A DNA stretch of 64,000 bases from Kiritimatiellota bacterium (GTDB lineage Bacteria > Verrucomicrobiota > Kiritimatiellia > RFP12 > UBA1067). The DNA is taken from NCBI GenBank assembly GCA_009778475.1, contig WRJS01000002.1, positions 3,836-67,835 of the forward strand. Direction: 5' to 3'. Shown in pieces: positions 25,218-47,750 of this stretch. A program made the translations under genes and the position numbers. Numbering within the stretch: the first letter of the stretch is position 1; each line of letters opens with the position of its first letter. Below the pieces are notes generated by a model, which saw nothing but the letters and a program-made list of their open reading frames with translations, had not been told where the DNA came from and ran no database searches.

Positions 25218-25369
25218 GGTTGGTTTTGGGTTGGTTTGGTTGGTTTGGTCGGTTTGGTTTTTCGACTGATGGCGACTGATACCGACTGACTTCGACTTAA
25301 GTCGAACATTCGATTTCAATCGACATCAGTCGGCATCAATCGACATCAGTCGAAAAAACGATCCCTCCA
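25218..25369. repeat. family-B composite repeat element B1: (GGTT(T)G)n microsatellite + imperfect palindrome of TCGAYTGA 10-bp units centred on CTTAAG
   Basis: ggttggttttgggttggtttggttggtttggtcggtttggttttt, then cgactgatggcgactgataccgactgacttcgaCTTAAGtcgaacattcgatttcaatcgacatcagtcggcatcaatcgacatcagtcgaaaaaa. Confidence 0.75.
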
Positions 25370-26099: not shown

Positions 26100-26262
26100 T
26101 TCCTTTCTTTTTCGTTTTGGGTTGGGGTTGATTGTTTTTTTCGATTGAAATCGACTGATGGCGACGGATGTCGATTGAAATCGAATACTCGGCTTAAGCC
26201 GAAGTCAGTCGCCATCAGTCGATTTCAGTCGAAAAAAACAATCCCCAGCGTCTCCGCCGTCC
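26100..26262. repeat. family-B composite repeat element B2 (near-perfect palindrome including flanking T7/A7 runs), overlapping the rnhB stop
   Basis: gggttggggttgattgtttttttcgattgaaatcgactgatggcgacggatgtcgattgaaatcgaatactcggCTTAAGccgaagtcagtcgccatcagtcgatttcagtcgaaaaaaacaatc. The rnhB stop (26205-26207) lies about 10 nt from the palindrome centre. Confidence 0.75.
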
Positions 26263-34522: not shown

Positions 34523-34872
34523 AACCCTCCCCTCTTCTTCGTTTGACAAGAAAATATATTTATACCAAAAAACATACGCCCTGTCAACACGGTCTCCGTT
34601 CTTCACCCGTGGTGCAAATTGCAATATTAAATGAACCACCCCGTGAAGGGCGTAGGGGGGGAAGACGAGAGGACGGCGGGGCGGCACTCCAACCCTTGCC
34701 TGAAGGCAAGCCCAATGGGGATGTTGCGTGGCGCGGGTGTTCCTGCCCGCCGCCGTCACGCCGCCGTCACGGGCGGGAATGCCTGTGCCATCTTTTGCTG
34801 TTTTAAGAAAAACTGGGGGAGCCGAAAAAAACGCTTGTGGGGTGCGGTCGGGTTTGATATTTTAGAAGCGGA

Positions 34873-36039
34873 ATGAAACAAGTAATTGGTACGACTTGTA
34901 GTAGAAAAGCGTGGGCGCATGAATGCGTGTTCGGCTTGGACGGGGAGGAGCCTTATCCAAGGGTTTCGGTCTCCACTGGTTTGTTTTATCCGCAGTGTTC
35001 CTGTCCGTATCGGGTTAATTTTCAAGGCAACGCGTCCGCCGACCTGGAGGGGTTTGTCGCCGCGTTGTCGGGCGGGGGGGGGCTGCCGTGGCAAAACCCG
35101 GACGCCGCCGCCGCCGCCATTGCTGACCCTTCCGTGCGGCTGGTCAGCGAGGAGTGGCTCGCTTATCTGCGCGGCGACTTTGAACGGGTGAAGCGGAGTT
35201 TCCGCGCCATTGAGGGCGGGGGCGCGCGGCTTTACGCCTGTTCCCATGCTGCGCTGGCGGCGGTCAGCACGGGGGATTGGCCGCTGCTGCGGGAGATCGA
35301 GGGCTATTGCAAAAAGCAGATGGTCCAGGGCGCGGGCGCGTTGGCGGGCGTTGTCGCGGAATGGGCGCTGACTATCGTTTACACCGGGGCGCACATTCCC
35401 TCCATGATCCCGGGATGGGTGAAGAGCGGGGATTTTGGCTTCCTCCCCCCCGCATTGAGGTGGGAGGTTTTTTACCGGTATGCCAAGTGGCTGCAACACG
35501 AGAAAAAGTATGAGGCCGCCCTTGCCGCGGCGCGGGCGGGTCTGGTGTTTTACGAGCGAAACCATGGCGTCACATGTGCGGGCACGTATCTGCGGGTCAG
35601 CGCCGCCATGGCCTGCGTGCAACTGGGGCGTCTGGCAAAGGCGCGCGAGTATCTCGCGGATGTGATGGCCGATTGTATGCCCCTGGGGTTCATCACCCCC
35701 TTTGCCGAGAACAGCCCGCACTTGGGCGGTCTGGTGGAGCAGCTTGCCGAGCAGCAGTATCCGGGCGTTCATAGCGCGATCGCGCGGCAGACCCGGCTGT
35801 CCATTCCGAACTGGATGGATTTCCACAACCGCTACTCCAAGAAACACCTCACGCCGCTCCTCACCCCGCGGGAGTACCAGATCGCGAAGGCGGTGCTGTC
35901 GGGCGCCTCGCGCAAGGAGATCGCGGAGCGGTTCCACCTGTCGCAGGGCACGGTCAAGAACGAGATGAGCAGGATTTACCAGACGTTGTTCATCTCCGGC
36001 AAAAACAGGAACGCGCAGTTGGCGAGGCACATCTTGTAG
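34873..36039 (+). CDS. LuxR-family transcriptional regulator (C-terminal HTH_LuxR/GerE domain)
   Basis: C-terminus LTPREYQIAKAVLSGASRKEIAERFHLSQGTVKNEMSRIYQTL is a canonical LuxR-type HTH. Directly upstream of, and co-directional with, tpsB. Confidence 0.7.
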   Translation: MKQVIGTTCSRKAWAHECVFGLDGEEPYPRVSVSTGLFYPQCSCPYRVNFQGNASADLEGFVAALSGGGGLPWQNPDAAAAAIADPSVRLVSEEWLAYLRGDFERVKRSFRAIEGGGARLYACSHAALAAVSTGDWPLLREIEGYCKKQMVQGAGALAGVVAEWALTIVYTGAHIPSMIPGWVKSGDFGFLPPALRWEVFYRYAKWLQHEKKYEAALAAARAGLVFYERNHGVTCAGTYLRVSAAMACVQLGRLAKAREYLADVMADCMPLGFITPFAENSPHLGGLVEQLAEQQYPGVHSAIARQTRLSIPNWMDFHNRYSKKHLTPLLTPREYQIAKAVLSGASRKEIAERFHLSQGTVKNEMSRIYQTLFISGKNRNAQLARHIL

Positions 36040-36091
36040 TGGAGGGCGTTTTGAGGCACAGGATTAATTTAACAGGATTGGCTTTTTACCA

Positions 36092-36141
36092 CAATGGACA
36101 CGATGGTTTTCACATGATAGGCACAAGAATCGTGTCCATTG
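36092..36141. promoter_or_regulatory. perfect 13-bp inverted repeat CAATGGACACGAT-N24-ATCGTGTCCATTG between the LuxR gene and tpsB
   Basis: Read directly; candidate regulator operator or terminator of the LuxR gene. Confidence 0.45.
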
Positions 36142-36166
36142 CGGTTAGAAGAAAACGGGGGATTTT

Positions 36167-36184
36167 TTGACAGGGTTGACAGGG
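36167..36184 (+). promoter_or_regulatory. tandem direct repeat TTGACAGGG TTGACAGGG (two -35-like hexamers)
   Basis: Read directly, upstream of tpsB. Confidence 0.35.
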
Positions 36185-36239
36185 TTGGTTTTACACGGCG
36201 ATGGGCGCAATGGAGGCGCGCGGCGTGTCTTGAAAAAAA

Positions 36240-36263
36240 TGACTTTTTCGAGGTGAAAAGTCA
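36240..36263 (+). promoter_or_regulatory. perfect 8-bp stem hairpin TGACTTTT-N8-AAAAGTCA flanked by A-tracts
   Basis: Read directly, about 25 nt upstream of the -10 element. Confidence 0.4.
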
Positions 36264-36287
36264 CTCAAAAAAAATGCGCTCTCCATC

Positions 36288-36293
36288 TATAAT
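36288..36293 (+). promoter_or_regulatory. consensus -10 hexamer TATAAT about 47 nt upstream of the tpsB ATG
   Basis: ctccatcTATAATaaaagg. No strong -35 at 17 bp. Confidence 0.4.
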
Positions 36294-36340
36294 AAAAGGC
36301 GTTTTTATTTTTTGACCGGTAGGGAGCATCAGGAAACACT

Positions 36341-38758
36341 ATGAATGTATTTTCTCGTGGACGGTGGACGTGGGGCGTCGGCGCCCGTTTGATGGGGGCG
36401 CTGGCGTGTGTGTGTTTGGGCGCGGTGGCGCTGGCGGCGGCGAAGGCGCCGGAGCGTGAGGAGGTGGCGCAGGCGCTGGAGGGGACGCAGCATAAGCGGC
36501 TGGACGCGAAGTCGGCGCTGCGGTTCTTCCAGTTGGTGACGGCGTTCGACGAGGCGACGAACAAGGTCGCGGTCGCGGCGGCGGCGTATGCGGAGGCGGC
36601 GGTGAAGGCCCAGTCGCTGGAGGCGGAGCACGCGGAGCGGTTCGGGCTGGACCCGTCGAAGCAATACCTCTATGAGCACGCGAGCGGGAAACTGTTCCGG
36701 CTGGAGGTGCAGGACGGCAGGCCGCCGAAGGTGGTGCGCATCGCGGAGCGGCGGATGGAGCCGGAGGAGGGCAAGGCGTACCTCGCGGCGCAGGGCGCGC
36801 GGGTGGAGGCGATCGCGGGCCAGCAGGCGGCGACGGAGGTCATCGCGGCGGAGGAGGCCGCGGCGGCGGCGGCGCTGGTGGCGCTGCGCAAGGAGTTCGG
36901 CGTGGATGACCATGCGTGGGCGGACCTGTACCTCGTGCCGGGGCGCACGGATGTGATGCTGGTGCAGGGGCGGTACCCGGTGCTGCCGCCGGTGCCGGTG
37001 GTGCCGACGAAGGACGGGGAGGTTCCGGCGGGGACGTTCTGGGTGCATGGCGTGAATTTCGCGTTCCCGGAGGGGAGCGGGCGGGTGATGGCGCGGCTGG
37101 CGGATGCGGCGGCGCGGCTGGACGCGGCGGCCCCGGCGGAGCTGACGCATGAGTCTGAGGAGTGGGGCAAGGAGCAGGTGGAGGTCGCGGACTTGGCGGC
37201 GGTGCTGCGCAAGGGGCGCGTGTCGGTGGGCGAGGGCGCGGTGGCGGTGCGCTCGCAGGTGCGCAACGGGGAGTTCGTCGCGCCGGGGTCGGTGATGCCG
37301 GCGGTGTCGAACCTGCTGGAGTCGGTGCGCGCGTCGGGCTTCTACATCGCGGGGCTGAGCCGCCCGATCGAGCCGCCGGTGGACGGCGTGCTGACGGTGC
37401 ATCTGGACCCGGGCAGGGTAGGGGACGTGACGGTGGCGTTTCAGGGCAAGGACGGCGAGGAGGGCGAGCCGTCGGAGACGGGGCGCTGGTTCTCGGGCGA
37501 TCAGATCCGGCGCAACTTCGAGCGTTCGGCGCCGGGGCGGCCGTTCAATTACGGTGCGCTCTATGACGCGCTGGCCGGGGTGAACGAGAACCCGGACCTT
37601 GCGGTGGACACGGATGTGAAGGTCCGGCAGGAGCAGGGCGAGGACGGCGCGGTGTCGCGCGTGGCGGACCTGAAGTTGGACGTGCGCGAGTCGATGCCGA
37701 TCCACGGGGCGGTGCAGGTGGGCAACGACGGGAGCAAGCAGTCGGGCAACTGGTGGGCGGGCGCGTCGCTGCGGCACCACAACCTGACGCGGCACGAGGA
37801 TATCCTTTCGGTGGAGGCGCAGGTGGCGCTGAAAGACGCGTCGATGTGGGCGGTGCAGGGCAGTTACCTCTTGCCGCACAGCCTGTGGCTCGGCGGGACG
37901 ATCGGGGTCTATGGCGGGTATTCGGAACTGAACATCAATGACTTGGTGCCGGACATCGGCGTGAGCGGGATGGGCAAGTACGTGGGCCTGCGCTTGTCGC
38001 AGCGTCTGCTGGAGACGCGGATGCACCGCATTGAGTTGGCGCTCGGGCAGACGTTCCGCTGGACGACGGAGAATCTGGAGTTCGCCGGGTACGCCGTGGA
38101 CAAGCGCGACGCGATGATCGCGCCGTATTATGTGCAGTTGCTCTGGCAGCAGAAGATGCTGGACGCGCTGGCGGGGCGTACGTTCGCGATGCTGGAGGCG
38201 TCGCACAATTTCAAGGGCTGGCTCGGCACGCCGTCGGATCTGGATTCGCTGCGCATCGGGGCGGACGGGGATTATACGGTCGGGCGCGCGCAGGTGGCGC
38301 GTCTGCAGGCCCTGAGCAAGGGGTCGGGCGACGGGCTGGATTCGCGCTGGACGCTGTTCGCGCGGGCGACGGGGCAGGCCTCGGATTCGCCGCTGGTGGC
38401 GATGGAGCAGTTCGGGCTGGGCGGGATGTCCACGGTGCGCGGTTATGCGGAGCGCGAGTTGCTGGGCGACAGCGCGTTGTTCGCGTCGCTCGAGGTGCGC
38501 ACGCCGGTGCTGCGCCTGTTTGACGACCTGAAGGACCGCTTGCAGTTCGTGGCGTTCCTCGACTCGGGCTGGGCGGACCTGCGCAACACCCAGCCGGGCG
38601 AGGACGGCGACACGTACCTGCTGAGCGCGGGCCTCGGGCTGCGCTACGCGGTGTGGAAGAACGCGATGCTGCGTTTCGACTGGGGCTTCCCGCTCGAGAA
38701 GACGTTTGACTCGGACAGCAAGGGGCGCGGGCACCTGAACCTGCAACTTCAATTTTAA
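36341..38758 (+). CDS. two-partner secretion outer-membrane transporter TpsB (ShlB/FhaC family) with an unusual ~260-aa Ala-rich N-terminal extension
   Basis: POTRA-like region, GGMSTVRGY signature, beta-barrel with alternating hydrophobics, terminal ...LNLQLQF (C-terminal Phe). Signal peptide present. The minus-strand 807-aa ORF is shadow. Confidence 0.8.
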   Translation: MNVFSRGRWTWGVGARLMGALACVCLGAVALAAAKAPEREEVAQALEGTQHKRLDAKSALRFFQLVTAFDEATNKVAVAAAAYAEAAVKAQSLEAEHAERFGLDPSKQYLYEHASGKLFRLEVQDGRPPKVVRIAERRMEPEEGKAYLAAQGARVEAIAGQQAATEVIAAEEAAAAAALVALRKEFGVDDHAWADLYLVPGRTDVMLVQGRYPVLPPVPVVPTKDGEVPAGTFWVHGVNFAFPEGSGRVMARLADAAARLDAAAPAELTHESEEWGKEQVEVADLAAVLRKGRVSVGEGAVAVRSQVRNGEFVAPGSVMPAVSNLLESVRASGFYIAGLSRPIEPPVDGVLTVHLDPGRVGDVTVAFQGKDGEEGEPSETGRWFSGDQIRRNFERSAPGRPFNYGALYDALAGVNENPDLAVDTDVKVRQEQGEDGAVSRVADLKLDVRESMPIHGAVQVGNDGSKQSGNWWAGASLRHHNLTRHEDILSVEAQVALKDASMWAVQGSYLLPHSLWLGGTIGVYGGYSELNINDLVPDIGVSGMGKYVGLRLSQRLLETRMHRIELALGQTFRWTTENLEFAGYAVDKRDAMIAPYYVQLLWQQKMLDALAGRTFAMLEASHNFKGWLGTPSDLDSLRIGADGDYTVGRAQVARLQALSKGSGDGLDSRWTLFARATGQASDSPLVAMEQFGLGGMSTVRGYAERELLGDSALFASLEVRTPVLRLFDDLKDRLQFVAFLDSGWADLRNTQPGEDGDTYLLSAGLGLRYAVWKNAMLRFDWGFPLEKTFDSDSKGRGHLNLQLQF

Positions 38759-38916
38759 GGGACGCGGGGACTATGATGATGGCGATGGGACTACAGGACT
38801 ACGGGACACCGGGACTACGGGGCGGGGACTGCGGGACGCGGGGACACACGTTCCGTCGTCCCGAAATCGCAGTCCTGTCGTCCAGAGTCCGTCGTCCCCA
38901 AAATGAGGAGAACAAA
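38759..38916. repeat. family-A intergenic element A1 (GGGAC-tract / GTCCC-tract imperfect palindrome)
   Basis: gggacgcggggac...gggactacaggactacgggacaccgggactacgggg...ccgtcgtcccgaaatcgcagtcctgtcgtccagagtccgtcgtcccc, followed by GAGGAG-N7-ATG of tpsA. Confidence 0.7.
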
Positions 38917-41900
38917 ATGAAGGTTTTCAATTTCTTTCGTGGACGGATGTCGCGCGTCATTGCCGCGCTGGCGCTGTGGGGCCTGCTGGCGCCGATGGGC
39001 GCGTTCGCGTTGCCGCAGGGCGGCAGCGTCCGCTCGGGCGATGTGTCGTGGGGCAGTTCAGGCGGCACGATGACGGTCAACCAGCAGTCGGCGCGCGCGA
39101 TCATCAACTGGAACACGTTCAGCATCGGCAGCACGGAGACGGTGCAGTTCAACCAGCCCGACGCGAGCGCGGCCATCCTGAACCGCGTGACGGGGCCGTA
39201 CTCGAGCGACATTTTCGGCAGCCTGCTGGCGAACGGCAACGTCTATCTCATCAACCCCAACGGCATCCTCTTCGGGGCGGGCGCGCGCATCAACGTGGGC
39301 GGGCTCGTGGCCTCGACGTTCGACATCTCGGACGATGACTTCAACCTCGGGAAACTCGACTTCAAGAACACGGGCAATTCCGGCAAGGTGGTGAACCGCG
39401 GCAGCATCTCGGCCGCGTCGTTCGCGTACCTGATCGGCGCGGGCGTGGAGAACCACGGCACGATCACAACCCCGGCCGCCGCGCTGGCCGCGGGGCACAG
39501 CCGGATCGTGATCGACCGCACGGCCATGGGCGGCGAGATCCGCCTGAGCGTGGACGCGGACATGGCGCCGATCTCCTTCACGACGTTCGACGCGCCGCAG
39601 GGCATGGCCAACGTCATCAACACGGGCGTGATTGACGCCTCGGGCGCGACGGGCGGCGACGTGGCCTTGCAGGGCGTGAACGTCGTGCAGTCCGGCACGA
39701 TCCGCGCAGACGGCATCGAGGGCGACGGCGGGCGCGTGCGCCTCTTCGGCGAACGCCTCGTCACGCTGGGCAGTGACAGCGTGACCACCGCGAACGCGGG
39801 GCGCGCGGGCGACGGCGGGCGCATCGAACTCATCTCCAGGGATTTCCTCGGCGTGTACGAGCGCGCCTACATCGCGGCGCGGGGCGGGACCCTGCGCGGC
39901 AACGGCGGCTTCGTGGAGACGAGCGGCCACGAGCGTTTCGTCATCGAGGCCGCGCCGGACGTGGGCGCGTACAACGGGCGCGGCGGCGAGTGGCTGATCG
40001 ACCCGCGCGACATCACGATCGTCGCGGTCGGCGACGAGGGGTGGGTGTGGAACGACAACGATATGTTCGCCCTCTGGGACAACACGAAGATTAAGGTCGC
40101 GGACATCCTCTCGGGCTTGGCGAACGGCGACGTGACCATCCACACGGGGACGGACGGAACGGCGGACGGCGACATCCATGTGAACGCGGACATCGGCTAT
40201 GCCATCCATCCCGGCACCACGCTGACGCTGGACGCGGCGCGGGACGTCAACCTCAACGCCAACGTCACGGCCGGCGCGGACAACACGCTCGGCCTCACCG
40301 CCGGGCGCGACGTGAACCAGAACAACGGCAACGTGCAGGTCGGCACGGTGGATTTCGACGTGGCGGGCGATGTCACGATGACAAGGCCGGACAACCGCAT
40401 CGGGACGCTCACGGGGACGGTCGGTGGCAACCTCGACCTCGCCAACAACCGCACGCTCAACCTCGACGGCCTGCGCGTCGCGGACGGCACGACCACGCTC
40501 AACGTCAACGGCGACCTCACGGATGCGGGCGCGAACACGCTTGCGGATCTGACCGTGCGCACGACGGGCGACATCGTCCTCGACGCGGCCAACGACTTGG
40601 GCGCGGTCACCGCCAACGCCAACAACGGCAAGGGCAGCATCACGCTCCGCGACGCGGCGGGCGACCTCAACGACGACGGCATCGTCCTGCGCAACATCGA
40701 CGGCGGCACGCTCACCGTCATCGCGGACGACGGCAGCATCACCCAGCAGGGCGGCACGCGCGTCCAGATTCTGGCGGACGCGGACGCGGGGATTTCGGGC
40801 GCGACCGACCTGACCGCGGCCGACCAGATCACTCTCTTTAATAGGAGAAACGATTTCGGCGGGCCCGTGAGCGCACGCGCGGCGGGCATCCAGTTGCGCG
40901 ACCGCAACAGCATCGTCCTCGACGAGATCGTCGCGGGCGTGGACGGGCTGACGGTGCGCACGGACCGCGGCGCCATCACGCAGATGGACGGTTACCCGGC
41001 CATCAGCGTCTTGGGCGAGACGCGCCTCACCGCGCGTAACGGTCGGCGCCCGGCGGACATTCTCCTCGAGAACGGGTTCAACAATTTCGTCGGCGCGGTC
41101 CATGCCGACGGCCGCAACATCGCGCTCACGGATGTGGACAGCATCCGCCTCGGGCGCATCGACGCCACGCGCACGCTCACCGTCCATGCGGACGGCGGCG
41201 ACATCACGCAGACGCCCGACGGCGTGCGGGTGCGGGGCGAGACCACGCTCTTCGCCACGGGCGACATCACGCTCGACAACCCCGTCAACGATTTCATCAA
41301 CGGCCCCGTCCACGCCAAGGGCATCAACATCGCGCTCACCGACGCCAACGACATCCTGCTCGGGCGCGTCGAGGCCGGCAACGCCGACGTGCGCGGCACG
41401 CTCGACGTGATCGCGCTCGACGGCGACATCACGCAGACGGCCGACGGCATCCTCGCGACGGGCGAGGCCACCTTCACCGCCGAGGGCAACGCCATCGCGC
41501 TCGGCGAGGCCGCGAACGATTTCCAGGACACCGTGAACGCCTACGCCAACGACGTCACCCTCACCGACGGCGCGGGCGGCATCAGCATCGGCCGCGTCAA
41601 GGCGCTGGCCGACCCCGGCGACGAGACGGCCGCGGAGACGGTCGTCATCACCGCGCTCAACGGCGGCATCACGGACGCGCAGCAGGAGACCGTCGGGCAT
41701 GACGCGGAGGGCTTCGCCACGATGGACGGGCCGCGCATCGTCAACATCATCGCCAACAACCTGCTGCTGCTCGCGGACGGCGACATCGGCGCGGTCGGCA
41801 CACCGCTGGACATCAACGCCGGGACATTGGCGGCGCGTTCGCTCGGCGGCAGCATCTGGCTGTTCGACTCCGGCGCGCTGACCCTCGGCACGGTCAACGG

Positions 41901-44802
41901 CATCGCGGGGCTCACGGCGGCGAACCATGCGAAGGTGGAGACCCTCAACGGGCCGCTCACGGTTGACCAGCGCGTTCTGGCGGGTGGCGACGTGTTGCTC
42001 GCCGCCAACGGCCCCGGCTCGGACGTGACGCTCAACGCCTTGGCTGCGGCGGTCGGGAACCTCACGGTGCTGGCGGCGCGGGACGTCGCGCAAAATGCGC
42101 TTCTGGCGGCACGGCAGACGGTTGACGTCGAGGCCAAGGGCGGGGCCGTCACCATGGGCGGCGGCGCCGCGACGGTCGGCGGCACGGTCGCCTACTACAC
42201 GGCGGGCGACATGGCCGTGACGCGCATCGCGGGCGGCAACGTCCGCCTCGAGGCGGAAGGCAGCATCACGGACGCGAACCTGAACAACGCGCCGAACATC
42301 CTCGCGCAGAACGCCCAACTCGTGGCGGGCGGCTCGGTCGGCGGCGCGGGCGGCACGGAGAGCGACGCCAACCCGCAGGCGCTCAACACCATCGTCGGCA
42401 CGCTGGCGGTGGACGCGGGCCAGAGCGCTTACATCCGCAACACGGGCAATCTGGAAATCGGCGCGGTCGCGCCCATCAACGTCAACCGCGTCGCGCTGGA
42501 CAGCACCACCACGCCGCTTGCGGGGGACGCGCTGTCCGGCGCGACCGCCGGGAACAACCTGAAAATCCTCAACACGCGCGGCGCACTCAACGTGACCTCC
42601 GGCGTGACCGCGCGGGACGGCGACCTCCTGCTGTGGGCGCAGCGCGGCGCGTTGGACATCGGCGCGGACGTGACGGCGGGGAACCTGCTCACGCTCGCGG
42701 GCGAGGGCGTCCGCCTCGGCGCGGGCCTGCTGGCGGGCGGCGACCTGTCCGTGAACGCCGGGGGCGGCAGCCTCACGCTCGGCGCGGGCTATTCGATTGA
42801 CGCGGGGAGCGCGCGCCTGACGGCCGACGGCGACATCGCGCTCGACCGCATCACCGCGCGTGACGTGGTGAGCGTCGTGGCGGGCGGCGACATCACCGAC
42901 GCGAACGCGGACGACACCGCGAACATCACGGCGGCGCGCGTGCGCCTGCAGGCGAGCGGCAGCATCGGCTCGGGCGACGGCGAGGAGAGCGACGCGAACC
43001 CCACGGCGGTGAACGTTGCGGCGGGCAACCTCGAGGCCATCGCCGAAGGCAACATCTATCTGCAGGCGGAGGGCGGCCTGACCATCGGCGGGGTAGGGGA
43101 CGTGACCCTCTCCGAGGCGCGGTTTGACAGCGGCGCCACCATGGCCGTGCGCGACACGGACCTGACGGGCGTGACGGCGGTCAACGGCGTGGCGAAGATC
43201 AAGGCCGGCGCGTTGACGGTGGACGAGGGCGTCACCGCCGGGACCGACGCGCTGCTGCTCACGACCGAGGGCGACCTCACGCTGAACGCGGCGCTGAACG
43301 CGGTCGGCATGGCGTCGCTCTTCGCGGCGGGCAACCTCAACCAGAACGCCGACATCACCGCGGGCGGCGACATCTTCCTCAGCGGCGCGAGCATCCTGAC
43401 GGCCAGCGGCATCGCGCTCCACGGCGACAACGTGCGCTATGCGTCCACGCTCGACGCGCTCATCGGCAACATCACCGCGAACGGCCTCGTGAACATCGTC
43501 GCCGGGCGCGACATCATCGACGCCAACCACGACAACGCGGCGAACATCGTAGCCGACCGCATCCGCCTCGAGGCGGGCGGCTCTGTCGGCAGCGCGGCCG
43601 ACGCGCTGGACATCGAGGCCAACACCGTCGCCGTGCAGGCTACGGGCGAGGCGTACCTGCGCTCACAAGGCGACATCACCATCGGCCGCATCGAGCAGGT
43701 GGAGACCGACTACGCGCGCTTCGACAGCGGCACCACGACCGTGATCGACCCGCCGCTGGCGGGCCTCACGACGGGCGGCAACGCCTCGCTGGTCTCCGTC
43801 AACGGCAACATCGGCCAGACGACGGGCGGCGATGTGTTTGTCGGCGGCACGACGCGGCTGGAGGCCCGCAACGGCGACGTCACGCTGGAGAACGCGAACA
43901 ACGATTTCGTCGGCCAGGTGGACGGCGTGGCGCGGAACATCTACCTGCGCGACCGCAACGACCTCTTCGTCGGGCAACTCGCCGCCAACGGTCACGTCCG
44001 CCTCACGGCCGCGGGCAGCATCCTCGCGGCGCAGGGCTACCCCAACGTGATCGCCGGGACCGCGGAGTTTTACTCGGGCCGCGACATCGGCCACCCGCTC
44101 TACATCAGCGTGGGCACGATCATCAACGCCATCGCCGGGGGCAACATCTCCCTCACGCAGGTCTCGGGCAACATGAACATCCTCGGCCAGGTCTATGCCG
44201 GGGGCAACGTGCGCCTCGACGTGCTGCACGGCGGCATCGTTGACGCCGACGGCGACGGCTACGTGCCGCCGTGGCGCGTCACGCCCGACAACGCCGACAT
44301 CTATTCCGGCGGCACCATGACGCTGATCGCGGACTTCGTCGGGACGCTGCGCGAGCCGGTGGAGATCATCGCGGGCCGCGGGCTGTGGCTGGGGTCGCAC
44401 CGCCCGCCCGCGCCGCCAAACGGCGCGTTCCCGTGGGTGGTCGTCAACGGCCGCGTCGGCGGCGGCGCACGCAACATCCACGTCAACCAGAGCGGCGTGC
44501 CGGGGCTGGTGATTTACAACGGCCAGCCGATCTGGGGGCCGTGGTGGACGATGCGGCAGTTCCAACTGGCCCAGCGCTCGCTCGCGGACAACGACCAGCC
44601 CAACCTGCTGGACAGCGGCATCGTCAAGTTGCCGTGGTTCCTGCACCCCGACATGAGCCTCCTCTCCCCCGCCCCCGTGCGCGACGACCTGCGCGAGGCC
44701 GAGGAGAAGGGGATCACGGGGCTGGACGAGGACCTCCCCGAGGACGCGCCGCGCACAAAGGCCCTCGGCCTGCCCGTGACGATGATGGGGGGAGGACGGT
44801 AG
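38917..44802 (+). CDS. TpsA-type exoprotein (filamentous haemagglutinin-like) with N-terminal TPS secretion domain
   Basis: Extended signal peptide, then PQGGSVRSGDVSWG...ARAIINWNTFSIGSTETVQFNQP...ILNRVTG...ANGNVYLINPNGILFGAGARINVGGLVAST, a near-textbook FhaB/ShlA TPS domain. About 1700 aa of beta-helical Gly/Asp/Asn-rich repeats follow. No VENN motif. Confidence 0.88.
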   Translation: MKVFNFFRGRMSRVIAALALWGLLAPMGAFALPQGGSVRSGDVSWGSSGGTMTVNQQSARAIINWNTFSIGSTETVQFNQPDASAAILNRVTGPYSSDIFGSLLANGNVYLINPNGILFGAGARINVGGLVASTFDISDDDFNLGKLDFKNTGNSGKVVNRGSISAASFAYLIGAGVENHGTITTPAAALAAGHSRIVIDRTAMGGEIRLSVDADMAPISFTTFDAPQGMANVINTGVIDASGATGGDVALQGVNVVQSGTIRADGIEGDGGRVRLFGERLVTLGSDSVTTANAGRAGDGGRIELISRDFLGVYERAYIAARGGTLRGNGGFVETSGHERFVIEAAPDVGAYNGRGGEWLIDPRDITIVAVGDEGWVWNDNDMFALWDNTKIKVADILSGLANGDVTIHTGTDGTADGDIHVNADIGYAIHPGTTLTLDAARDVNLNANVTAGADNTLGLTAGRDVNQNNGNVQVGTVDFDVAGDVTMTRPDNRIGTLTGTVGGNLDLANNRTLNLDGLRVADGTTTLNVNGDLTDAGANTLADLTVRTTGDIVLDAANDLGAVTANANNGKGSITLRDAAGDLNDDGIVLRNIDGGTLTVIADDGSITQQGGTRVQILADADAGISGATDLTAADQITLFNRRNDFGGPVSARAAGIQLRDRNSIVLDEIVAGVDGLTVRTDRGAITQMDGYPAISVLGETRLTARNGRRPADILLENGFNNFVGAVHADGRNIALTDVDSIRLGRIDATRTLTVHADGGDITQTPDGVRVRGETTLFATGDITLDNPVNDFINGPVHAKGINIALTDANDILLGRVEAGNADVRGTLDVIALDGDITQTADGILATGEATFTAEGNAIALGEAANDFQDTVNAYANDVTLTDGAGGISIGRVKALADPGDETAAETVVITALNGGITDAQQETVGHDAEGFATMDGPRIVNIIANNLLLLADGDIGAVGTPLDINAGTLAARSLGGSIWLFDSGALTLGTVNGIAGLTAANHAKVETLNGPLTVDQRVLAGGDVLLAANGPGSDVTLNALAAAVGNLTVLAARDVAQNALLAARQTVDVEAKGGAVTMGGGAATVGGTVAYYTAGDMAVTRIAGGNVRLEAEGSITDANLNNAPNILAQNAQLVAGGSVGGAGGTESDANPQALNTIVGTLAVDAGQSAYIRNTGNLEIGAVAPINVNRVALDSTTTPLAGDALSGATAGNNLKILNTRGALNVTSGVTARDGDLLLWAQRGALDIGADVTAGNLLTLAGEGVRLGAGLLAGGDLSVNAGGGSLTLGAGYSIDAGSARLTADGDIALDRITARDVVSVVAGGDITDANADDTANITAARVRLQASGSIGSGDGEESDANPTAVNVAAGNLEAIAEGNIYLQAEGGLTIGGVGDVTLSEARFDSGATMAVRDTDLTGVTAVNGVAKIKAGALTVDEGVTAGTDALLLTTEGDLTLNAALNAVGMASLFAAGNLNQNADITAGGDIFLSGASILTASGIALHGDNVRYASTLDALIGNITANGLVNIVAGRDIIDANHDNAANIVADRIRLEAGGSVGSAADALDIEANTVAVQATGEAYLRSQGDITIGRIEQVETDYARFDSGTTTVIDPPLAGLTTGGNASLVSVNGNIGQTTGGDVFVGGTTRLEARNGDVTLENANNDFVGQVDGVARNIYLRDRNDLFVGQLAANGHVRLTAAGSILAAQGYPNVIAGTAEFYSGRDIGHPLYISVGTIINAIAGGNISLTQVSGNMNILGQVYAGGNVRLDVLHGGIVDADGDGYVPPWRVTPDNADIYSGGTMTLIADFVGTLREPVEIIAGRGLWLGSHRPPAPPNGAFPWVVVNGRVGGGARNIHVNQSGVPGLVIYNGQPIWGPWWTMRQFQLAQRSLADNDQPNLLDSGIVKLPWFLHPDMSLLSPAPVRDDLREAEEKGITGLDEDLPEDAPRTKALGLPVTMMGGGR

Positions 44803-45220
44803 GGAGAGTGTGGAGAGTGGAGGGTGGAGAGTGGAGTTGCGAAGGGACGATGGGACAAGGGGACGCAAGGACGATGATGATGGCGGATTTGGGGACTACG
44901 GACTACAGGACTACAGGACTACGGATTGGGGACGAAGGGACGCAAGGACAGTGATGATGGCGGAGGGACTACAGGACTACGGGACTACGGGACTACGGCT
45001 TTCGGGACGTGGGGACGCGGGGACATGGGGACAGCGGCTGCTTAAAAGCCGTTGTCCCGTTGTCCCGTGTCCCGTCGTCCCGAAAGCCGCCGCCGCCGTC
45101 CCCTCGTCCCCTCGTCCCCCCACAACTCCACTCTCCACACTCCACTCTCCACACTCCTCTTTCCACACTCCACTCTCCACCCTCCACTCTCAACACTCGC
45201 CCCACCGTCCCCTCGTCCCG
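44803..45220. repeat. family-A element A2: ~400-bp composite imperfect palindrome (GGAGAGTGGAG arms, GGGACTACGG repeats, G4 motif, 12-bp stem hairpin, CCCGT tracts)
   Basis: Left arm gagagtgtggagagtggagggtggagagtggag pairs with right arm ctccactctccacactccactctccacactcc. Core gggacgtggggacgcggggacatggggacagcggctgcttaaaagccgttgtcccgttgtccc. Internal duplication of a gatgatggcgga..ggactacgg module. Confidence 0.8.
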
Positions 45221-45223
45221 ATA

Positions 45224-47533
45224 CTGCTGGCGGTCGTGTTGGCGACCCACGTCGCCAGCGCGGAGCCAGACTGGTTCTTTGAGACTACGGCGCGGACGTT
45301 TGTCACGAACAGCGCGGGGTGGCGGTTTGCGGCGACGGCGAATGCCGGGGCGGGGACGCTCAACGTCGGCGTGTGCAGCCGTGCGCCGGACGTGGCGGGG
45401 GTGCTGGATTTCTCGGGCGGGGTCTCGGACGAGGTCAACGGCACGGGCAACACGTTTGACATCGTGGCCATCAACGGCTCGGTGCTGGGCTCGGCCTCTT
45501 CGGCGTACATCCCGAAGGCGTCGGGGCTCGTCCTGCCCTCCACGCTCACGAACCTCGCCGCCAACGCCTTCAACGCCTGTACCAACATGACGGGTTCGCT
45601 CGTCCTCCCCGACGGCGTGGTCTCCATCGGCAACTACGCCTTCCAGAACTGCCGCTTCACGGGTGCGCTCGTCCTCCCCGACAGCGTGACCTCCATCGGC
45701 AACTCCGCCTTCAGCGGCTGCGCCTTCGGTGGCTCGCTCGTCATCCCCGACAGCGTGACCTCCATCGGCAACTACGCCTTCAGCGGCTGCCCCTTCGGCG
45801 GCTCGCTCGTCATCGGCGACGGCGTGACCTCCATCGGCTACAGCGCCTTCAATGGCAACACCTTCTCGGGCAGCGTCACCTTCGGGGCGGGCCTCGTGGA
45901 CTTCGGCAACTATATTTTCTGCAACACCACCTTCGACGTCCGCACGCTCACCTTCCCCGACACCGCCAAGAGCATCGGCAACGCCTTCAACCTTAGCGGC
46001 AACGCGAACCTCCACGCCACGTTCGTCAACACCTCCCTCGTCCTCGGCGACGGCGTGACGAACATCGCCGCGTATGCGTTCCACACCACCGGGCTGACGG
46101 GGACGCTGACGCTCGGCACCAACCTCCACGCCATCGGCGACTACGCCTTCCGCGACTGCAAGATTACGGGCGGCCTCGCCGTCCCCGACAGCGTGAGGAC
46201 TGTCGGCTCCTACGCCTTCAGCGGTGGTGGCTACACGGGGACGCTGACGTTCGGCACGAACCTCCTTGCCATCGGCAACAACGCCTTCCAGAACTGCAAG
46301 TTCACGGGCGACCTCGTCCTCCCCGACAGCGTGACCTCCATCGGCAACAACGCCTTCGACGGTTGCGCGTTCAACGGGAAACTCCACATCGGCTCCACCG
46401 CGACCTGCGCCATCGGCACCTACGCCTTCCAGAACAGCCCCTTCGGCGGCTCGCTTCTCATCGGCGACGGCGTGACCTCCATCGGAACGCGCGCCTTCAA
46501 CGGCAACACGTTCTCCGGCTCCGTCACCTTCGGGGCAGGCCTCGTGAACTTCAACAACACCATCTTCTGCAACACCGCCTTCGACATCCCCCTGCTCGTC
46601 ATCCCCGATACCGTCAAGAGCATCGGCGACGCCTTCAGCAGTGGCAGCACCTCGTCCTACCGCGCCACGTTCAACGGCGCCACCCTCTTCCTCGGCGACG
46701 GCGTGACCAACGTCGCCGCGAGCGCGTTCCGCTATTGCACCGGGCTCGAGCGCATCTCCTCCCCCTCCACCGACATCGCCATCGGCAACTACGCCTTCCA
46801 AGCGACATCGTTGCGGGGAGTCTACTACCGGGGCGGCTACCCCAAGAGCGTCGGGGCGACCCTCTACTACGGTTCCTCCGCCTGCACCTCCTACGTCACC
46901 CGCGCCAGCGTCGCCGACTGGGAATGGTTCACGGGGCTCGACATCCTCGGCGGCGCCGCGACATGGCAAGCCAAGCCCATCCGCGTCGCCGACGCCGACG
47001 ACCTCCCCGGCATCCTCGCCCTCGACCCCATGGGCGGCTACGGCGGCGCCACCACCGCCCGCCTCGGCGGCGACGGGCAACTGCCCCCCGGCCTCGCCGC
47101 CCCACGGCGCGACAACATGATCTTTGACGGCTACTGGGATGCGCCGCAAGGTAGCACTATGTACCTCGCGCCCGACATGACGCCGTGCGCCGCGTGGCCC
47201 GACCCCAACGGCGGCAAACTCTACGCCCGCTGGACTGACCTCGAAGACGAGGACTTCCAGTCGATATGCATTGAGGCGATCGAGGTCTTGGAGGACGGCG
47301 ACGTGGCGCTTTTCTGGAACCGCGACCGCGTGAAGTTCACGTACACGAAGGAGCCTTACACGGTCGTCGTTCAGGGCGCGGAGGACCTTGCCGGGTGGAA
47401 TGTGTTGGAGGAGGGCGGCGACTACACCCTCGACACCGCGCCGAACCCGCGCCGCCTCCACAAGGCGCGGGTCACGCCCCCCGCCGGAGCGACGAGGGGG
47501 TTCTTCAAGGCTTGGGCGCAGAGGGATGAATGA
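45224..47533 (+). CDS. BspA-type leucine-rich-repeat surface protein (start codon uncertain)
   Basis: Repeated LVLPDSVTSIGNYAFSGC / LVIPDSVTSIGN.AF.GC units (LRR_5/BspA-like). A hydrophobic LVPILLAVVLATHVASA segment precedes them. No in-frame ATG after the palindrome (candidate CTG/GTG/TTG at 45224-45241). The in-frame ORF back to GTG 44810 would translate the repeat element. Confidence 0.6.
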   Translation: MLAVVLATHVASAEPDWFFETTARTFVTNSAGWRFAATANAGAGTLNVGVCSRAPDVAGVLDFSGGVSDEVNGTGNTFDIVAINGSVLGSASSAYIPKASGLVLPSTLTNLAANAFNACTNMTGSLVLPDGVVSIGNYAFQNCRFTGALVLPDSVTSIGNSAFSGCAFGGSLVIPDSVTSIGNYAFSGCPFGGSLVIGDGVTSIGYSAFNGNTFSGSVTFGAGLVDFGNYIFCNTTFDVRTLTFPDTAKSIGNAFNLSGNANLHATFVNTSLVLGDGVTNIAAYAFHTTGLTGTLTLGTNLHAIGDYAFRDCKITGGLAVPDSVRTVGSYAFSGGGYTGTLTFGTNLLAIGNNAFQNCKFTGDLVLPDSVTSIGNNAFDGCAFNGKLHIGSTATCAIGTYAFQNSPFGGSLLIGDGVTSIGTRAFNGNTFSGSVTFGAGLVNFNNTIFCNTAFDIPLLVIPDTVKSIGDAFSSGSTSSYRATFNGATLFLGDGVTNVAASAFRYCTGLERISSPSTDIAIGNYAFQATSLRGVYYRGGYPKSVGATLYYGSSACTSYVTRASVADWEWFTGLDILGGAATWQAKPIRVADADDLPGILALDPMGGYGGATTARLGGDGQLPPGLAAPRRDNMIFDGYWDAPQGSTMYLAPDMTPCAAWPDPNGGKLYARWTDLEDEDFQSICIEAIEVLEDGDVALFWNRDRVKFTYTKEPYTVVVQGAEDLAGWNVLEEGGDYTLDTAPNPRRLHKARVTPPAGATRGFFKAWAQRDE

Positions 47534-47725
47534 GGCATGAGAAGTGTGGAGAGTGGAGTTGCGCAGGGACGAAAGGATGATGACGATGACGATGACGGAT
47601 TTTGGGATTACGGACTACAGGACACCGGGACTACGGCTTTCGGGGCGTGGGGACGCGGGGACATGGGGACAGCGGCTGCTTAAAAGCCGTTGTCCCGTTG
47701 TCCCGCCGTCCCAGCGTCCCAAACC
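47534..47725. repeat. family-A element A3; ~90-bp core nearly identical to A2 (44985-45073 vs 47620-47708)
   Basis: gaagtgtggagagtggagttgcgcagggacga...gggactacggctttcggggcgtggggacgcggggacatggggacagcggctgcttaaaagccgttgtcccgttgtcccg, then AGGAG-N8-ATG of the next gene. Confidence 0.8.
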
Positions 47726-47750
47726 CTGTTAATTTTTAGGAGAAAACGTT

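What the first reader, a model, noticed from the sequence alone, without database searches (positions are those of the whole stretch)
36040..36340. Highly structured control region upstream of tpsB
In 300 bp there is a perfect 13-bp inverted repeat with a 24-nt spacer (36092-36141), a tandem TTGACAGGG repeat (36167-36184), an A-tract-flanked perfect 8-bp hairpin (36240-36263) and a consensus TATAAT (36288-36293). The adjacent LuxR-family regulator is an obvious candidate to bind the inverted repeat, suggesting dedicated (possibly quorum or signal-dependent) control of the secretion cluster.
Basis: seen in the sequence. Interest (0 to 1): 0.5.

Follow-up and report, generated by a model that had tools for sequence, protein, structure and literature searches.

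The report
Regulator operator and promoter before tpsB
The stretch in front of a secretion operon holds a conserved binding-site-plus-promoter unit that travels with the neighbouring LuxR-type regulator gene, but it is the small 8-bp palindrome and the TATAAT box, not the eye-catching 13-bp inverted repeat, that are conserved.

Summary
All four features are in the sequence at the stated coordinates. In shuffles of the 301-bp spacer, the 13-bp inverted repeat and the TTGACAGGG tandem each appear in 2 of 1000, the 8-bp hairpin in 43 and TATAAT in 13.

Comparison with related loci reverses their apparent importance. In 11 independent loci carrying a homologue of the adjacent regulator, plus two cassettes on one further contig, the same unit recurs. 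It is a roughly 24-bp palindrome (consensus AG-TGACTTTT-N8-AAAAGTCA-CT), then exactly 24 nt with no -35, then TATAAT, TATGAT or TATGGT. The loci come from Kiritimatiellia and Bacillota-labelled metagenome genomes, with regulators 35-73% identical.

In the window this unit is 36240-36263 plus 36288-36293. A lysine in the regulator's recognition helix co-varies with the outer operator bases. One cassette lies with no regulator gene in its 12.5-kb locus.

The 13-bp repeat and the tandem repeat sit in a 200-bp filler found only in this strain.

Best reading: a -35-less promoter that depends on the regulator, which has a TPR-like domain and a LuxR-type DNA-binding domain. It drives tpsB-tpsA-LRR. 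No part of the regulator indicates acyl-homoserine-lactone quorum sensing. This is an ordinary mechanism in an uncharacterised family.

The parts
34873..36039 (+). Regulator gene with a TPR-like helical domain and a C-terminal LuxR/GerE helix-turn-helix (388 aa from this ATG). The identical gene on the same-strain contig L005 was called 18 codons shorter. The N-terminal HTH_17 core carried by most homologues is deleted here.
   Evidence: Pfam GerE PF00196, E = 5.7e-9, residues 330-375. Alignment with homologues. AlphaFold2 mean pLDDT 81, all-helical, residues 1-52 disordered. P0014 is 100% identical.
36040..36232 (.). Strain-specific filler between the regulator stop codon and the operator. 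In nine of the 11 related loci the operator starts within about 30 nt of the stop, or overlaps it; L016 and L024 also carry long spacers.
   Evidence: Absent in L007, whose whole intergenic region is 116 bp. Replaced in L006 by a different insertion of about 420 bp with terminal inverted repeats. No other copy in the window or in any fetched locus except the identical strain L005. No match in plasmids or phages.
36082..36151 (+). Long stem-loop with a 13-bp perfect core (36092-36104 / 36129-36141), 23-nt arms at 87% and a 24-nt loop. It is real and non-random but not conserved. Its role is unknown; it may be a 3' stem-loop or insulator for the regulator mRNA, or a remnant of a small insertion.
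   Evidence: -29.6 kcal/mol, z = -5.1; 2/1000 shuffles; unique in 64 kb. No U-run follows and no terminator was called. The arm sequence occurs nowhere else in the window.
36167..36184 (+). Tandem TTGACAGGG twice. It gives two -35-like TTGACA hexamers, but no -10 partner lies 16-18 nt downstream. It is not conserved and is probably a slippage duplication.
   Evidence: The promoter scan found 0 sites. 2/1000 shuffles, and three other 9-mer tandems in the window. Absent from orthologous loci.
36233..36265 (.). Predicted operator of the regulator: A-tract, then TGACTTTT-N8-AAAAGTCA (36240-36263), then CT. Family consensus AAAnAG-TGACTTTT-TgnGgnnn-AAAAGTCA-CT. Its centre lies about -48.5 from the predicted start, and the promoter-proximal half-site covers -44 to -37.
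   Evidence: With up to 3 mismatches there is one site in each of the eight TGAC-type loci, always just 3' of the regulator gene; the other three loci carry a variant palindrome at the same place. This is the only such site in the 64-kb window. Both half-sites change together between loci. The recognition-helix lysine co-varies with the operator type. An orphan copy lies away from any regulator gene.
36264..36287 (+). 24-nt spacer of fixed length and free sequence. No -35-like hexamer lies 16-19 nt from the -10.
   Evidence: Same length in 11/11 loci, with L013 arguably 25. The best match to TTGACA is 3/6 or less in 12 of 13 cassettes.
36288..36293 (+). -10 hexamer TATAAT of the tpsB promoter. 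The predicted transcription start is about 36299-36301, giving a 5' UTR of about 41 nt.
   Evidence: TATAAT, TATGAT, TATGGT or CATTAT at the identical distance from the palindrome in 11/11 independent loci. The background rate of such hexamers is 0.025 per position, binomial 2.5e-18. The start site is inferred, not measured.
36291..36313 (+). Weak A/U hairpin AATAAAA-ggcgt-TTTTATT followed by a T-run, overlapping the -10. It is a degenerate counterpart of the GC-rich hairpin plus T-run that embeds the -10 in the Bacillota-type loci.
   Evidence: The local fold is not significant (z = -0.12).
36331..36343 (+). Shine-Dalgarno AGGAA and the ATG of tpsB. The string AGGAA(A/G)CA..ATG is conserved in L006 and L007.
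36341..47533 (+). Target operon: tpsB (36341-38758, ShlB/Omp85), tpsA (38773-44802, TPS domain plus DUF5649 repeats) and a BspA-type LRR protein (44810-47533). The gaps between genes are 14 and 7 nt.
   Evidence: Pfam, ORF map, and a long hairpin after the last gene.

Best explanation
The functional core of this region is a compact regulator-operator-promoter cassette.

The gene at 34873-36039 encodes a transcription factor with a TPR-like sensor or oligomerisation domain and a C-terminal LuxR/GerE helix-turn-helix. I infer that it binds as a dimer, or a higher oligomer, to the palindrome TGACTTTT-N8-AAAAGTCA (36240-36263).

The promoter-proximal half-site ends exactly 24 bp before the -10 hexamer TATAAT (36288-36293). 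It therefore abuts the position where a -35 element would lie, and no -35 exists. The bound regulator is inferred to recruit RNA polymerase in the way a class-II-like activator does, by contact with sigma region 4 or the alpha subunit. Transcription would start near 36300 and run through tpsB, tpsA and the LRR gene.

The 13-bp inverted repeat and the TTGACAGGG tandem lie in a 200-bp strain-specific filler inserted between the regulator's stop codon and the operator. They are not part of the conserved control logic. The stem-loop may at most stop or stabilise the regulator's own transcript.

Shown here: the conservation, the fixed geometry, the absence of a -35, the protein-operator covariation, and the occurrence of the cassette away from any regulator gene.

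Inferred: actual binding, the sign of regulation (activation), the transcription start, and any ligand.
For: 1. Linkage. Regulator homologues at 69% and 73% identity in two other Kiritimatiellia genomes are again followed by TpsB and TpsA, although the upstream neighbours differ. Four TpsB homologues (62-77% identity) without the regulator have unrelated upstream genes. None has the palindrome upstream of tpsB.

2. Cassette. Eleven independent loci carry a roughly 24-bp palindrome, then 24 nt, then a -10-like hexamer. The regulators are 35-73% identical to the window's, in Kiritimatiellia and Bacillota-labelled genomes. The score is 11/11 against a background of 0.025 per position, binomial about 2.5e-18.

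3. Specificity. With up to 3 mismatches the TGAC-type site occurs once in each TGAC-type regulator locus, and only two 3-mismatch hits occur elsewhere across all fetched loci plus the window.

4. Symmetric change. The half-sites differ between loci (GTCA, CTACA, ACAT) while the two-fold symmetry is kept.

5. Protein-DNA covariation. All 8 TGAC-type loci have (T/R)(V/L)KN in the recognition helix. The 3 loci with variant operators have that K replaced by N or G.

6. Action at a distance from the gene. One 47-kb contig has a cassette next to a regulator homologue (L026). It also has an orphan cassette between two giant ORFs, with no regulator in that 12.5-kb locus.

7. No -35-like hexamer in any cassette (for the window).

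8. Precedent. For BvgA, a LuxR-family activator of the fhaB two-partner-secretion promoter, dimers centre on inverted heptads and the promoter-proximal site abuts the -35 region (PMC7250471).
Against: - There are no experimental data. Binding, the transcription start and the direction of regulation are all inferred.
- The loci share ancestry, so the binomial and the 8-versus-3 covariation overstate independence.
- The palindrome half-sites are 16 bp apart centre to centre, or 20 bp for the outer GTCA motifs. That is wider than the 9-12 bp I recall as typical for LuxR-type dimers, so the stoichiometry is unclear.
- A centre near -48.5 is not the classical -41.5 of class II activators.
- The window's regulator has lost the N-terminal HTH_17. 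If that domain were the one reading the palindrome, this copy would be blind. Against that, natural short forms of about 345 aa without it exist in the family, and L013 carries one together with a palindrome.
- The palindrome can also fold as a modest RNA hairpin, -3.5 to -15.8 kcal/mol.
Confidence: 0.72

Rival explanations
1. The LuxR-family protein binds the 13-bp inverted repeat (36092-36141), and the whole 300 bp is an integrated, possibly quorum-dependent, control region.
For: The repeat is the most improbable feature statistically. It arises in 2/1000 shuffles and is the only perfect inverted repeat of 11 bp or more in 64 kb. It lies between the regulator gene and tpsB.
Against: It is absent from every orthologous or homologous locus. 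L007 has only 12 nt between the stop codon and the operator. A 24-nt gap between the arms suits a stem-loop better than a dimer site. No second copy of the arm occurs in the window. The regulator has no autoinducer-binding domain.
Confidence: 0.06
2. The small palindrome acts as RNA, not as a DNA operator. It would be a 3'-end hairpin or terminator of the regulator mRNA, or an attenuator in a read-through transcript into tpsB.
For: In nine of the 11 loci it lies within about 30 nt of the regulator stop codon or overlaps it. Most copies fold as hairpins of -7 to -16 kcal/mol. In the Bacillota-type loci a true terminator-like hairpin plus T-run follows about 25 nt later.
Against: No U-run follows the palindrome. 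Pairing is broken in L009 (-3.5 kcal/mol, z = -0.5) and disturbed in L006, while position and the proximal half-site are kept. The distance to the -10 is fixed to the nucleotide, which an RNA hairpin does not require. An orphan copy occurs with no regulator gene upstream. The operator type co-varies with the protein's DNA-recognition helix.
Confidence: 0.1
3. The A/T-tract palindrome is a UP-element-like or curved-DNA module contacted by the RNA polymerase alpha subunit. The promoter is constitutive and the regulator acts elsewhere.
For: A T-tract and an A-tract at about -56 to -41, plus an upstream A-run, fall in the zone where UP elements lie (sequence; the UP-element position is from my own knowledge of E. 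coli rrnB P1 studies). The -10 is a perfect consensus.
Against: The most conserved bases are the non-A/T outer GTCAC/GTGAC, and the site is strictly two-fold symmetric. With one exception, the orphan copy in L025, every cassette found lies next to a gene of this regulator family. The site co-varies with the regulator's recognition helix.
Confidence: 0.06
4. The regulator binds the palindrome but represses rather than activates.
For: The -10 is consensus TATAAT, which can support some -35-independent initiation. LuxR-type proteins can repress; I recall GerE and some LuxR solos doing so.
Against: The site lies wholly upstream of the -35 position and does not overlap the -10 or the start. There is no -35. 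TpsB homologues that lack the regulator appear instead to have -35/-10 pairs, read by eye as CTTGCG or TTGCTT, then 18-19 nt, then TAnnAT.
Confidence: 0.12

Closest known systems
BvgA and the fhaB promoter of Bordetella (a LuxR/NarL-family activator of a two-partner secretion system)
   Same: A LuxR-type helix-turn-helix protein activates a TpsA/TpsB locus. Dimers centre on inverted repeats and the promoter-proximal site abuts the -35 region, consistent with contacts to sigma and alpha (PMC7250471).
   Different: BvgA is a phosphorylated response regulator with a receiver domain, and several dimers bind from a distant primary site. Here there is no receiver domain and a single 24-bp palindrome. 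The operator lies next to the regulator's own stop codon in most family loci, though 200 bp away in this window.
LuxR/TraR-type quorum-sensing activators with lux-box or tra-box promoters
   Same: A palindromic box just upstream of a -10 in a promoter that lacks a good -35, with a GerE-type helix-turn-helix (my own knowledge of these systems; GerE domain).
   Different: There is no autoinducer-binding domain PF03472. The box is 24-28 bp with internal A/T tracts and is centred near -48.5, rather than the 18-20 bp box near -42.5 that I recall for lux and tra boxes.
MalT / LAL-type regulators (STAND ATPase, then helical-repeat sensor, then LuxR helix-turn-helix)
   Same: A helical-repeat domain followed by a C-terminal LuxR helix-turn-helix. 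The NCBIfam MalT model aligns to residues 330-388.
   Different: The protein has only 388 aa and no NTPase module. The similarity is limited to the helix-turn-helix. MalT boxes are asymmetric repeats (own knowledge).
RRNPP peptide-sensing regulators (PlcR, NprR, Rap, AimR)
   Same: A TPR sensor fused to a helix-turn-helix. Foldseek lists Rap, NprR and AimR among the TPR hits. PlcR also uses a palindromic box (own knowledge).
   Different: The hits are generic TPR matches (E of 0.06 or worse, TM 0.41 or lower). In RRNPP proteins the helix-turn-helix is N-terminal and XRE-type, whereas here it is C-terminal and LuxR-type. No signalling-peptide gene was identified.

Membership tests
LuxR/FixJ/GerE helix-turn-helix regulators (Pfam PF00196) | C-terminal GerE-type helix-turn-helix domain scoring above the Pfam gathering score | tested here: met
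   PF00196 at 35.9 bits against a cut-off of 23.5, residues 330-375. The best PDB sequence hit is GerE, 1fse.
AHL quorum-sensing LuxR/TraR family | N-terminal autoinducer-binding domain (PF03472) | tested here: not met
   No such hit in the window protein or four homologues. The model is all-helical and TPR-like.
AHL quorum-sensing LuxR/TraR family | 18-20 bp lux-box-type palindrome overlapping the -35 (centre about -42.5) | tested here: inconclusive
   A palindrome is present, but it is 24-28 bp and its centre is predicted near -48.5. The transcription start is not measured.
AHL quorum-sensing LuxR/TraR family | Cognate LuxI-type synthase, or a demonstrated AHL response | not tested
   No search for a synthase was made. 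A ligand response cannot be tested with these tools.
NarL/BvgA-type response regulators | N-terminal receiver domain with a phospho-acceptor Asp | tested here: not met
   No receiver-domain hit. NCBIfam response-regulator models align only to the helix-turn-helix (residues about 322-385) and fall far below their cut-offs.
MalT/LAL (STAND) regulators | N-terminal STAND NTPase domain | tested here: not met
   The protein has 388 aa, and the MalT model matches only positions 839-897 of 903.
RRNPP regulators | TPR peptide-binding domain with an N-terminal XRE-type helix-turn-helix and a cognate secreted peptide | tested here: not met
   A TPR-like fold is present but only generically similar. The helix-turn-helix is C-terminal and LuxR-type. 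A peptide gene was not examined.
Two-partner secretion system | Omp85-family TpsB (ShlB/FhaC domain) next to a TpsA with an N-terminal TPS domain | tested here: met
   PF03865, E = 9.4e-26, in 36341-38758. PF05860, E = 3.7e-31, in 38773-44802.
Canonical sigma-70 -35/-10 promoter | -10 hexamer close to TATAAT | tested here: met
   TATAAT at 36288-36293, conserved in position in 11/11 loci.
Canonical sigma-70 -35/-10 promoter | -35 hexamer close to TTGACA, 16-18 nt upstream of the -10 | tested here: not met
   The promoter scan found 0 sites. The best match is 3/6 in the window and 3/6 or less in 12 of 13 cassettes. The TTGACA pair at 36167-36181 has no -10 partner.
Intrinsic (Rho-independent) terminator, for the 13/23-bp inverted repeat | GC-rich stem, short loop, U-run immediately 3' | tested here: not met
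   The stem is stable (-29.6 kcal/mol), but the loop is 24 nt and no T-run follows. The scan found 0 terminators.
Any curated RNA family (Rfam 15) | Covariance-model match at or above the gathering score | tested here: not met
   Only sub-threshold chance hits, such as mir-802 at 21.6 bits against 86.

The most novel reading that the evidence does not exclude
The regulator gene, its operator and a -35-less promoter form a portable expression cassette. In the Bacillota-type versions the -10 is buried in the 5' arm of the regulator's own terminator hairpin. The cassette would have moved between phyla (Bacillota-labelled genomes and Kiritimatiellia) with an almost unchanged operator. It has been placed in front of unrelated giant surface or secreted proteins: S-layer-homology (SLH)-anchored proteins of about 2000 aa in one phylum and a TpsB/TpsA secretion pair in the other. 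On this reading it defines a large uncharacterised family (324 clusters at 50% identity) of dedicated switches for giant adhesin-like proteins, possibly ligand-gated through the TPR domain.
Probability: 0.35. Interest if true: 0.5.

Novelty: new member of a known kind. Interest (0 to 1): 0.38.

Why it matters
The analysis turns a vague 'structured region' into a precise, testable model. It gives a 24-bp operator, a -10, a predicted start site and a named regulator for a secretion operon in Kiritimatiellia, a phylum with no promoter data that I know of.

It also gives a family of several hundred unnamed regulators a predicted DNA motif and a predicted class of targets: giant surface or secreted proteins. 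A candidate specificity-determining residue, the lysine in the recognition helix, could be swapped experimentally.

More generally, the statistically most striking repeat was the lineage-specific one, and the marginal hairpin was the conserved one.

Tried and rejected
- Rfam scan of 35800-36600 at a permissive E-value gave only chance hits.
- The consensus promoter and terminator scan gave nothing. The TTGACA tandem is therefore not part of a canonical promoter, and the inverted repeat is not a canonical terminator.
- A search for close TpsB relatives in species-representative genomes gave none.
- The exact-sequence look-up of the 388-aa regulator failed. The identical protein is on record as the 370-aa P0014, so I attribute the failure to a different start call. 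It was recovered through the homologue search.
- I searched for other copies of the 200-bp filler or of the repeat arm, to test the idea of a small mobile element (MITE) or a regulon site. There were none in the window, in 24 loci, in plasmids or in phages.
- An alternative pairing of the repeat's 3' arm with CGCAATGGA at 36206-36214 (I5) was considered as an attenuator. I dropped it because nothing there is conserved and the 5' UTR fold is not significant.
- A literature search for the operator half-sites returned only primers and unrelated sequences.
- Structure comparison of the regulator gave only generic TPR matches, so no specific sensor family could be assigned.
- The most distant loci do not show the same cassette and were not counted. 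These are L015 (37% identity, a different 6-bp palindrome) and L010 (21%).

Full report
**1. What is in the sequence**

The 301-bp spacer 36040-36340 lies between the stop codon of a 388-aa ORF (34873-36039, +) and the ATG of an 805-aa ORF (36341-38758, +).

Pfam assigns the genes as follows:
- 34873-36039: a C-terminal GerE/LuxR helix-turn-helix.
- 36341-38758: a ShlB/FhaC/Omp85 transporter (TpsB).
- 38773-44802: a 2009-aa TpsA, with a TPS domain and DUF5649 repeats.
- 44810-47533: a BspA-type leucine-rich-repeat protein.

The gaps between the last three genes are 14 and 7 nt, so they form one operon. A very long GC-rich hairpin follows the last gene.

The spacer has 47.5% G+C, against 63-72% in the flanking 400-nt bins.

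The 13-bp repeat extends to 23-nt arms (36082-36104 / 36129-36151, 87% complementary).

**2. Are the features more than chance?**

| Feature | Shuffles that reach it (of 1000) | Other observations |
|---|---|---|
| Perfect inverted repeat of 13 bp or more | 2 | Only perfect repeat of 11 bp or more (loop 3-40) in the 64-kb window; RNA fold -29.6 kcal/mol, z = -5.1 |
| 9-mer tandem duplication | 2 | Three others in the window, all within the coding ORFs mapped |
| 8-bp hairpin | 43 | - |
| TATAAT on the + strand | 13 | - |

- The consensus scan finds neither a -35/-10 promoter nor an intrinsic terminator.
- Rfam gives nothing.
- Neither TTGACA of the tandem has a usable -10 at 16-18 nt (sequence).

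**3. Lineage and linkage**

The closest proteins come from Kiritimatiellia and Verrucomicrobiota metagenome genomes. A contig from the same strain (L005) is identical across the spacer.

Regulator homologues of 69% and 73% identity (L006, L007) are again followed by TpsB and TpsA, although their upstream neighbours differ.

Four TpsB homologues (62-77% identity) whose contexts were fetched have no regulator upstream. Instead they have unrelated neighbours. By eye, their promoters are ordinary -35/-10 pairs: CTTGCG or TTGCTT, then 18-19 nt, then TAnnAT.

The regulator and the secretion genes are therefore linked as a module in one sub-lineage.

**4. The conserved unit**

Aligning the spacers shows that only two of the four features are conserved. 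L007 has 12 nt between the stop codon and TGACTTTT-tgggggtg-AAAAGTCA, then 24 nt, then TATAAT. L006 has TGCTTTTT-ttcaaatg-AAAAGTCA, then 24 nt, then TATAAT.

More distant homologues were found with a profile. Their contexts come from contigs labelled Bacillota or Oscillospiraceae, or carrying SLH and Flg_new giant proteins. The regulators are 35-47% identical to the window's. All show the same plan:

| Locus or loci | Palindrome | -10 hexamer, 24 nt downstream |
|---|---|---|
| L008, L016, L024 | GTGACTTTT-N8-AAAAGTCAC | TATGAT |
| L019 | same | TATGGT |
| L023 (left arm overlaps the regulator's TGA stop) | same, one mismatch in the right arm (AAAGGTCA) | TATAAT |
| L014 | TGTAGTTT-N8-AAACTACA | CATTAT |
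| L013 (spacing arguably 25 nt) | ATGTTTTT-N8-AAACATAC | TATAAT |
| L009 | TGTGTTTT-N8-AAAATGGA | TATGAT |

The supporting counts are these.
- 11 of 11 independent loci have a -10-like hexamer at that exact distance. The background is 0.025 per position, giving a binomial of 2.5e-18 that ignores shared ancestry.
- A scan of all fetched loci and the window, allowing up to 3 mismatches, finds the TGAC-type site once in each TGAC-type regulator locus. Only two 3-mismatch hits occur elsewhere.
- The window has only the one site, at 36240-36263.
- No cassette has a -35-like hexamer.

**5. Evidence that the regulator reads the palindrome**

- The half-sites change symmetrically between loci.
- The recognition helix of the GerE domain reads (T/R)(V/L)KN in all eight loci with TGAC/GTCA half-sites. 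The three loci with altered half-sites have that lysine replaced by N or G.
- A pattern scan of viral contigs found two more cassettes on one 47-kb contig. One lies beside a regulator homologue. The other is an orphan between two giant ORFs, with no regulator in its 12.5-kb locus.
- The orphan shows the element is a promoter module usable away from the regulator gene, not a feature of the regulator's 3' end.

As RNA the palindromes are only modest hairpins and none is followed by a U-run. The L009 copy hardly pairs.

**6. Geometry and mechanism**

If the -10 occupies -12 to -7, the elements sit as follows:
- transcription start near 36300;
- 24-nt spacer at -36 to -13;
- promoter-proximal half-site at -44 to -37;
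- palindrome centre near -48.5.

A site that abuts an absent -35 points to activation by polymerase recruitment. This is the arrangement described for the promoter-proximal BvgA dimer at Bordetella promoters, including the fhaB two-partner-secretion promoter (PMC7250471).

Activation rather than repression is an inference, and so are the stoichiometry and any ligand.

In the Bacillota-type loci the -10 lies in the 5' arm of a GC-rich hairpin followed by a T-run. Read-through from the regulator gene would meet a terminator there. Transcripts that start at the promoter lack the 5' arm and would escape it. The window keeps only a weak A/U version, 36291-36309 plus T-run.

**7. The regulator**

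- It has no autoinducer-binding domain, no receiver domain and no NTPase domain.
- The AlphaFold2 model (mean pLDDT 81) is all-helical.
- Foldseek returns only generic TPR proteins, with Rap, NprR and AimR among them, at E of 0.02 or worse.
- Most homologues carry an N-terminal HTH_17. In the window's protein the core of that domain is deleted and residues 1-52 are disordered. Natural short forms of the family exist.
- The family has 324 clusters at 50% identity with E of 1e-30 or better. No curated family covers it, and the literature library returned nothing for its operator half-sites.

**8. The non-conserved part**

The segment 36040-36232 has no counterpart in any other lineage. At the same junction L006 carries a different insertion of about 420 bp, with 32-nt perfect terminal inverted repeats.

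The 13/23-bp stem-loop is real, but its function is open. It could be a 3' stem-loop for the regulator mRNA; this genome does place a long hairpin without a U-run at the end of the operon. It could also be a remnant of an insertion.

One weak hint favours insertion. The 5'-UTR string GGCGTTTTTATTTTTTGACCGG reappears split on either side of the hairpin-bearing 109 nt (D1 and D11).

**9. Verdict**

The spacer is a dedicated control region and the neighbouring LuxR-type protein is very probably its regulator. The operator is the small palindrome at 36240-36263, acting with TATAAT at 36288-36293. It is not the 13-bp repeat, and nothing supports AHL-type quorum sensing.

The mechanism is of a known kind. 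What is new is the predicted operator and target class for an uncharacterised regulator family, and the cassette's apparent portability across phyla.

Noticed in passing
window 47641-47720: A very long GC-rich hairpin built from GGGGAC / GTCCC repeats lies about 100 nt after the stop of the BspA-LRR gene, with no U-run. The region 47534-47750 folds at -90.6 kcal/mol, z = -4.5. It is probably the end of the tpsB-tpsA-LRR operon, and it suggests that terminators in this genome need not carry U-tracts.
   Followed up: partly
window 25246-25369 and 26130-26243: Two self-complementary elements of about 115 nt flank a segment of about 780 bp that has lower G+C and a minus-strand ORF. Each element is itself a hairpin, and the two are 85% complementary to each other over 101 nt. 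They are built of short units such as TCGACATCAGTCG. The arrangement looks like a small mobile cassette or a pair of recombination sites.
   Followed up: partly
window 34873-35060 (N-terminus of the regulator): The window's regulator lacks the core of the N-terminal HTH_17 domain that most homologues carry, through a deletion of about 23 aa relative to P0015. Residues 1-52 are predicted disordered. The same-strain contig had the gene called 18 codons shorter.
   Followed up: partly
L006 4410-4830: An insertion of about 420 bp with 32-nt perfect terminal inverted repeats and nested 55-nt inverted repeats (motif CAACCCCAACGGGGTTG) sits between the regulator stop codon and the operator. This is the same junction where the window carries its own unrelated 200-bp filler.
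   Followed up: partly
L008 5200-5600, L009, L014, L016, L019, L024, L025, L026 (downstream of the cassette): In the Bacillota-type loci the first gene after the promoter is a conserved small ORF of about 110-150 aa. L025 and L026 begin MNQEEKHLHKIY(R/Q)VGDRSFPIY, and L008 and L014 share a Cys-rich stretch. A giant surface protein of 1200-2200 aa with SLH, Flg_new, fn3 or cadherin-like domains follows. The small ORF is absent from the Kiritimatiellia TpsB/TpsA loci.
   Followed up: no
L016/L019/L023/L024/L008, 0-45 nt after the -10: The -10 hexamer is embedded in the 5' arm of a GC-rich hairpin followed by a T-run, for example CCCCTATGATAGTAATGAAAAGCTACCATAGGGGTTTTTT. The hairpin could terminate read-through from the regulator gene while being bypassed by transcripts that start at the promoter.
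   Followed up: partly
window 36045-36052 / 36162-36174 versus 36298-36319: The 5'-UTR string GGCGTTTTTATTTTTTGACCGG reappears upstream as GGCGTTTT ... ATTTTTTGACAGG, split by the 109 nt that carry the 23-bp stem-loop. This is a weak hint that the stem-loop was inserted into a duplicated copy of the UTR.
   Followed up: no
window 34544-34587: In the divergent spacer between the WbsX-type glycosyltransferase gene and the regulator gene, TTGACA (34544-34549) and its inverse TGTCAA (34582-34587, part of a third TTGACAGGG on the minus strand) flank an A/T-rich stretch. This may be the promoter region of the regulator or of the glycosyltransferase gene.
   Followed up: no
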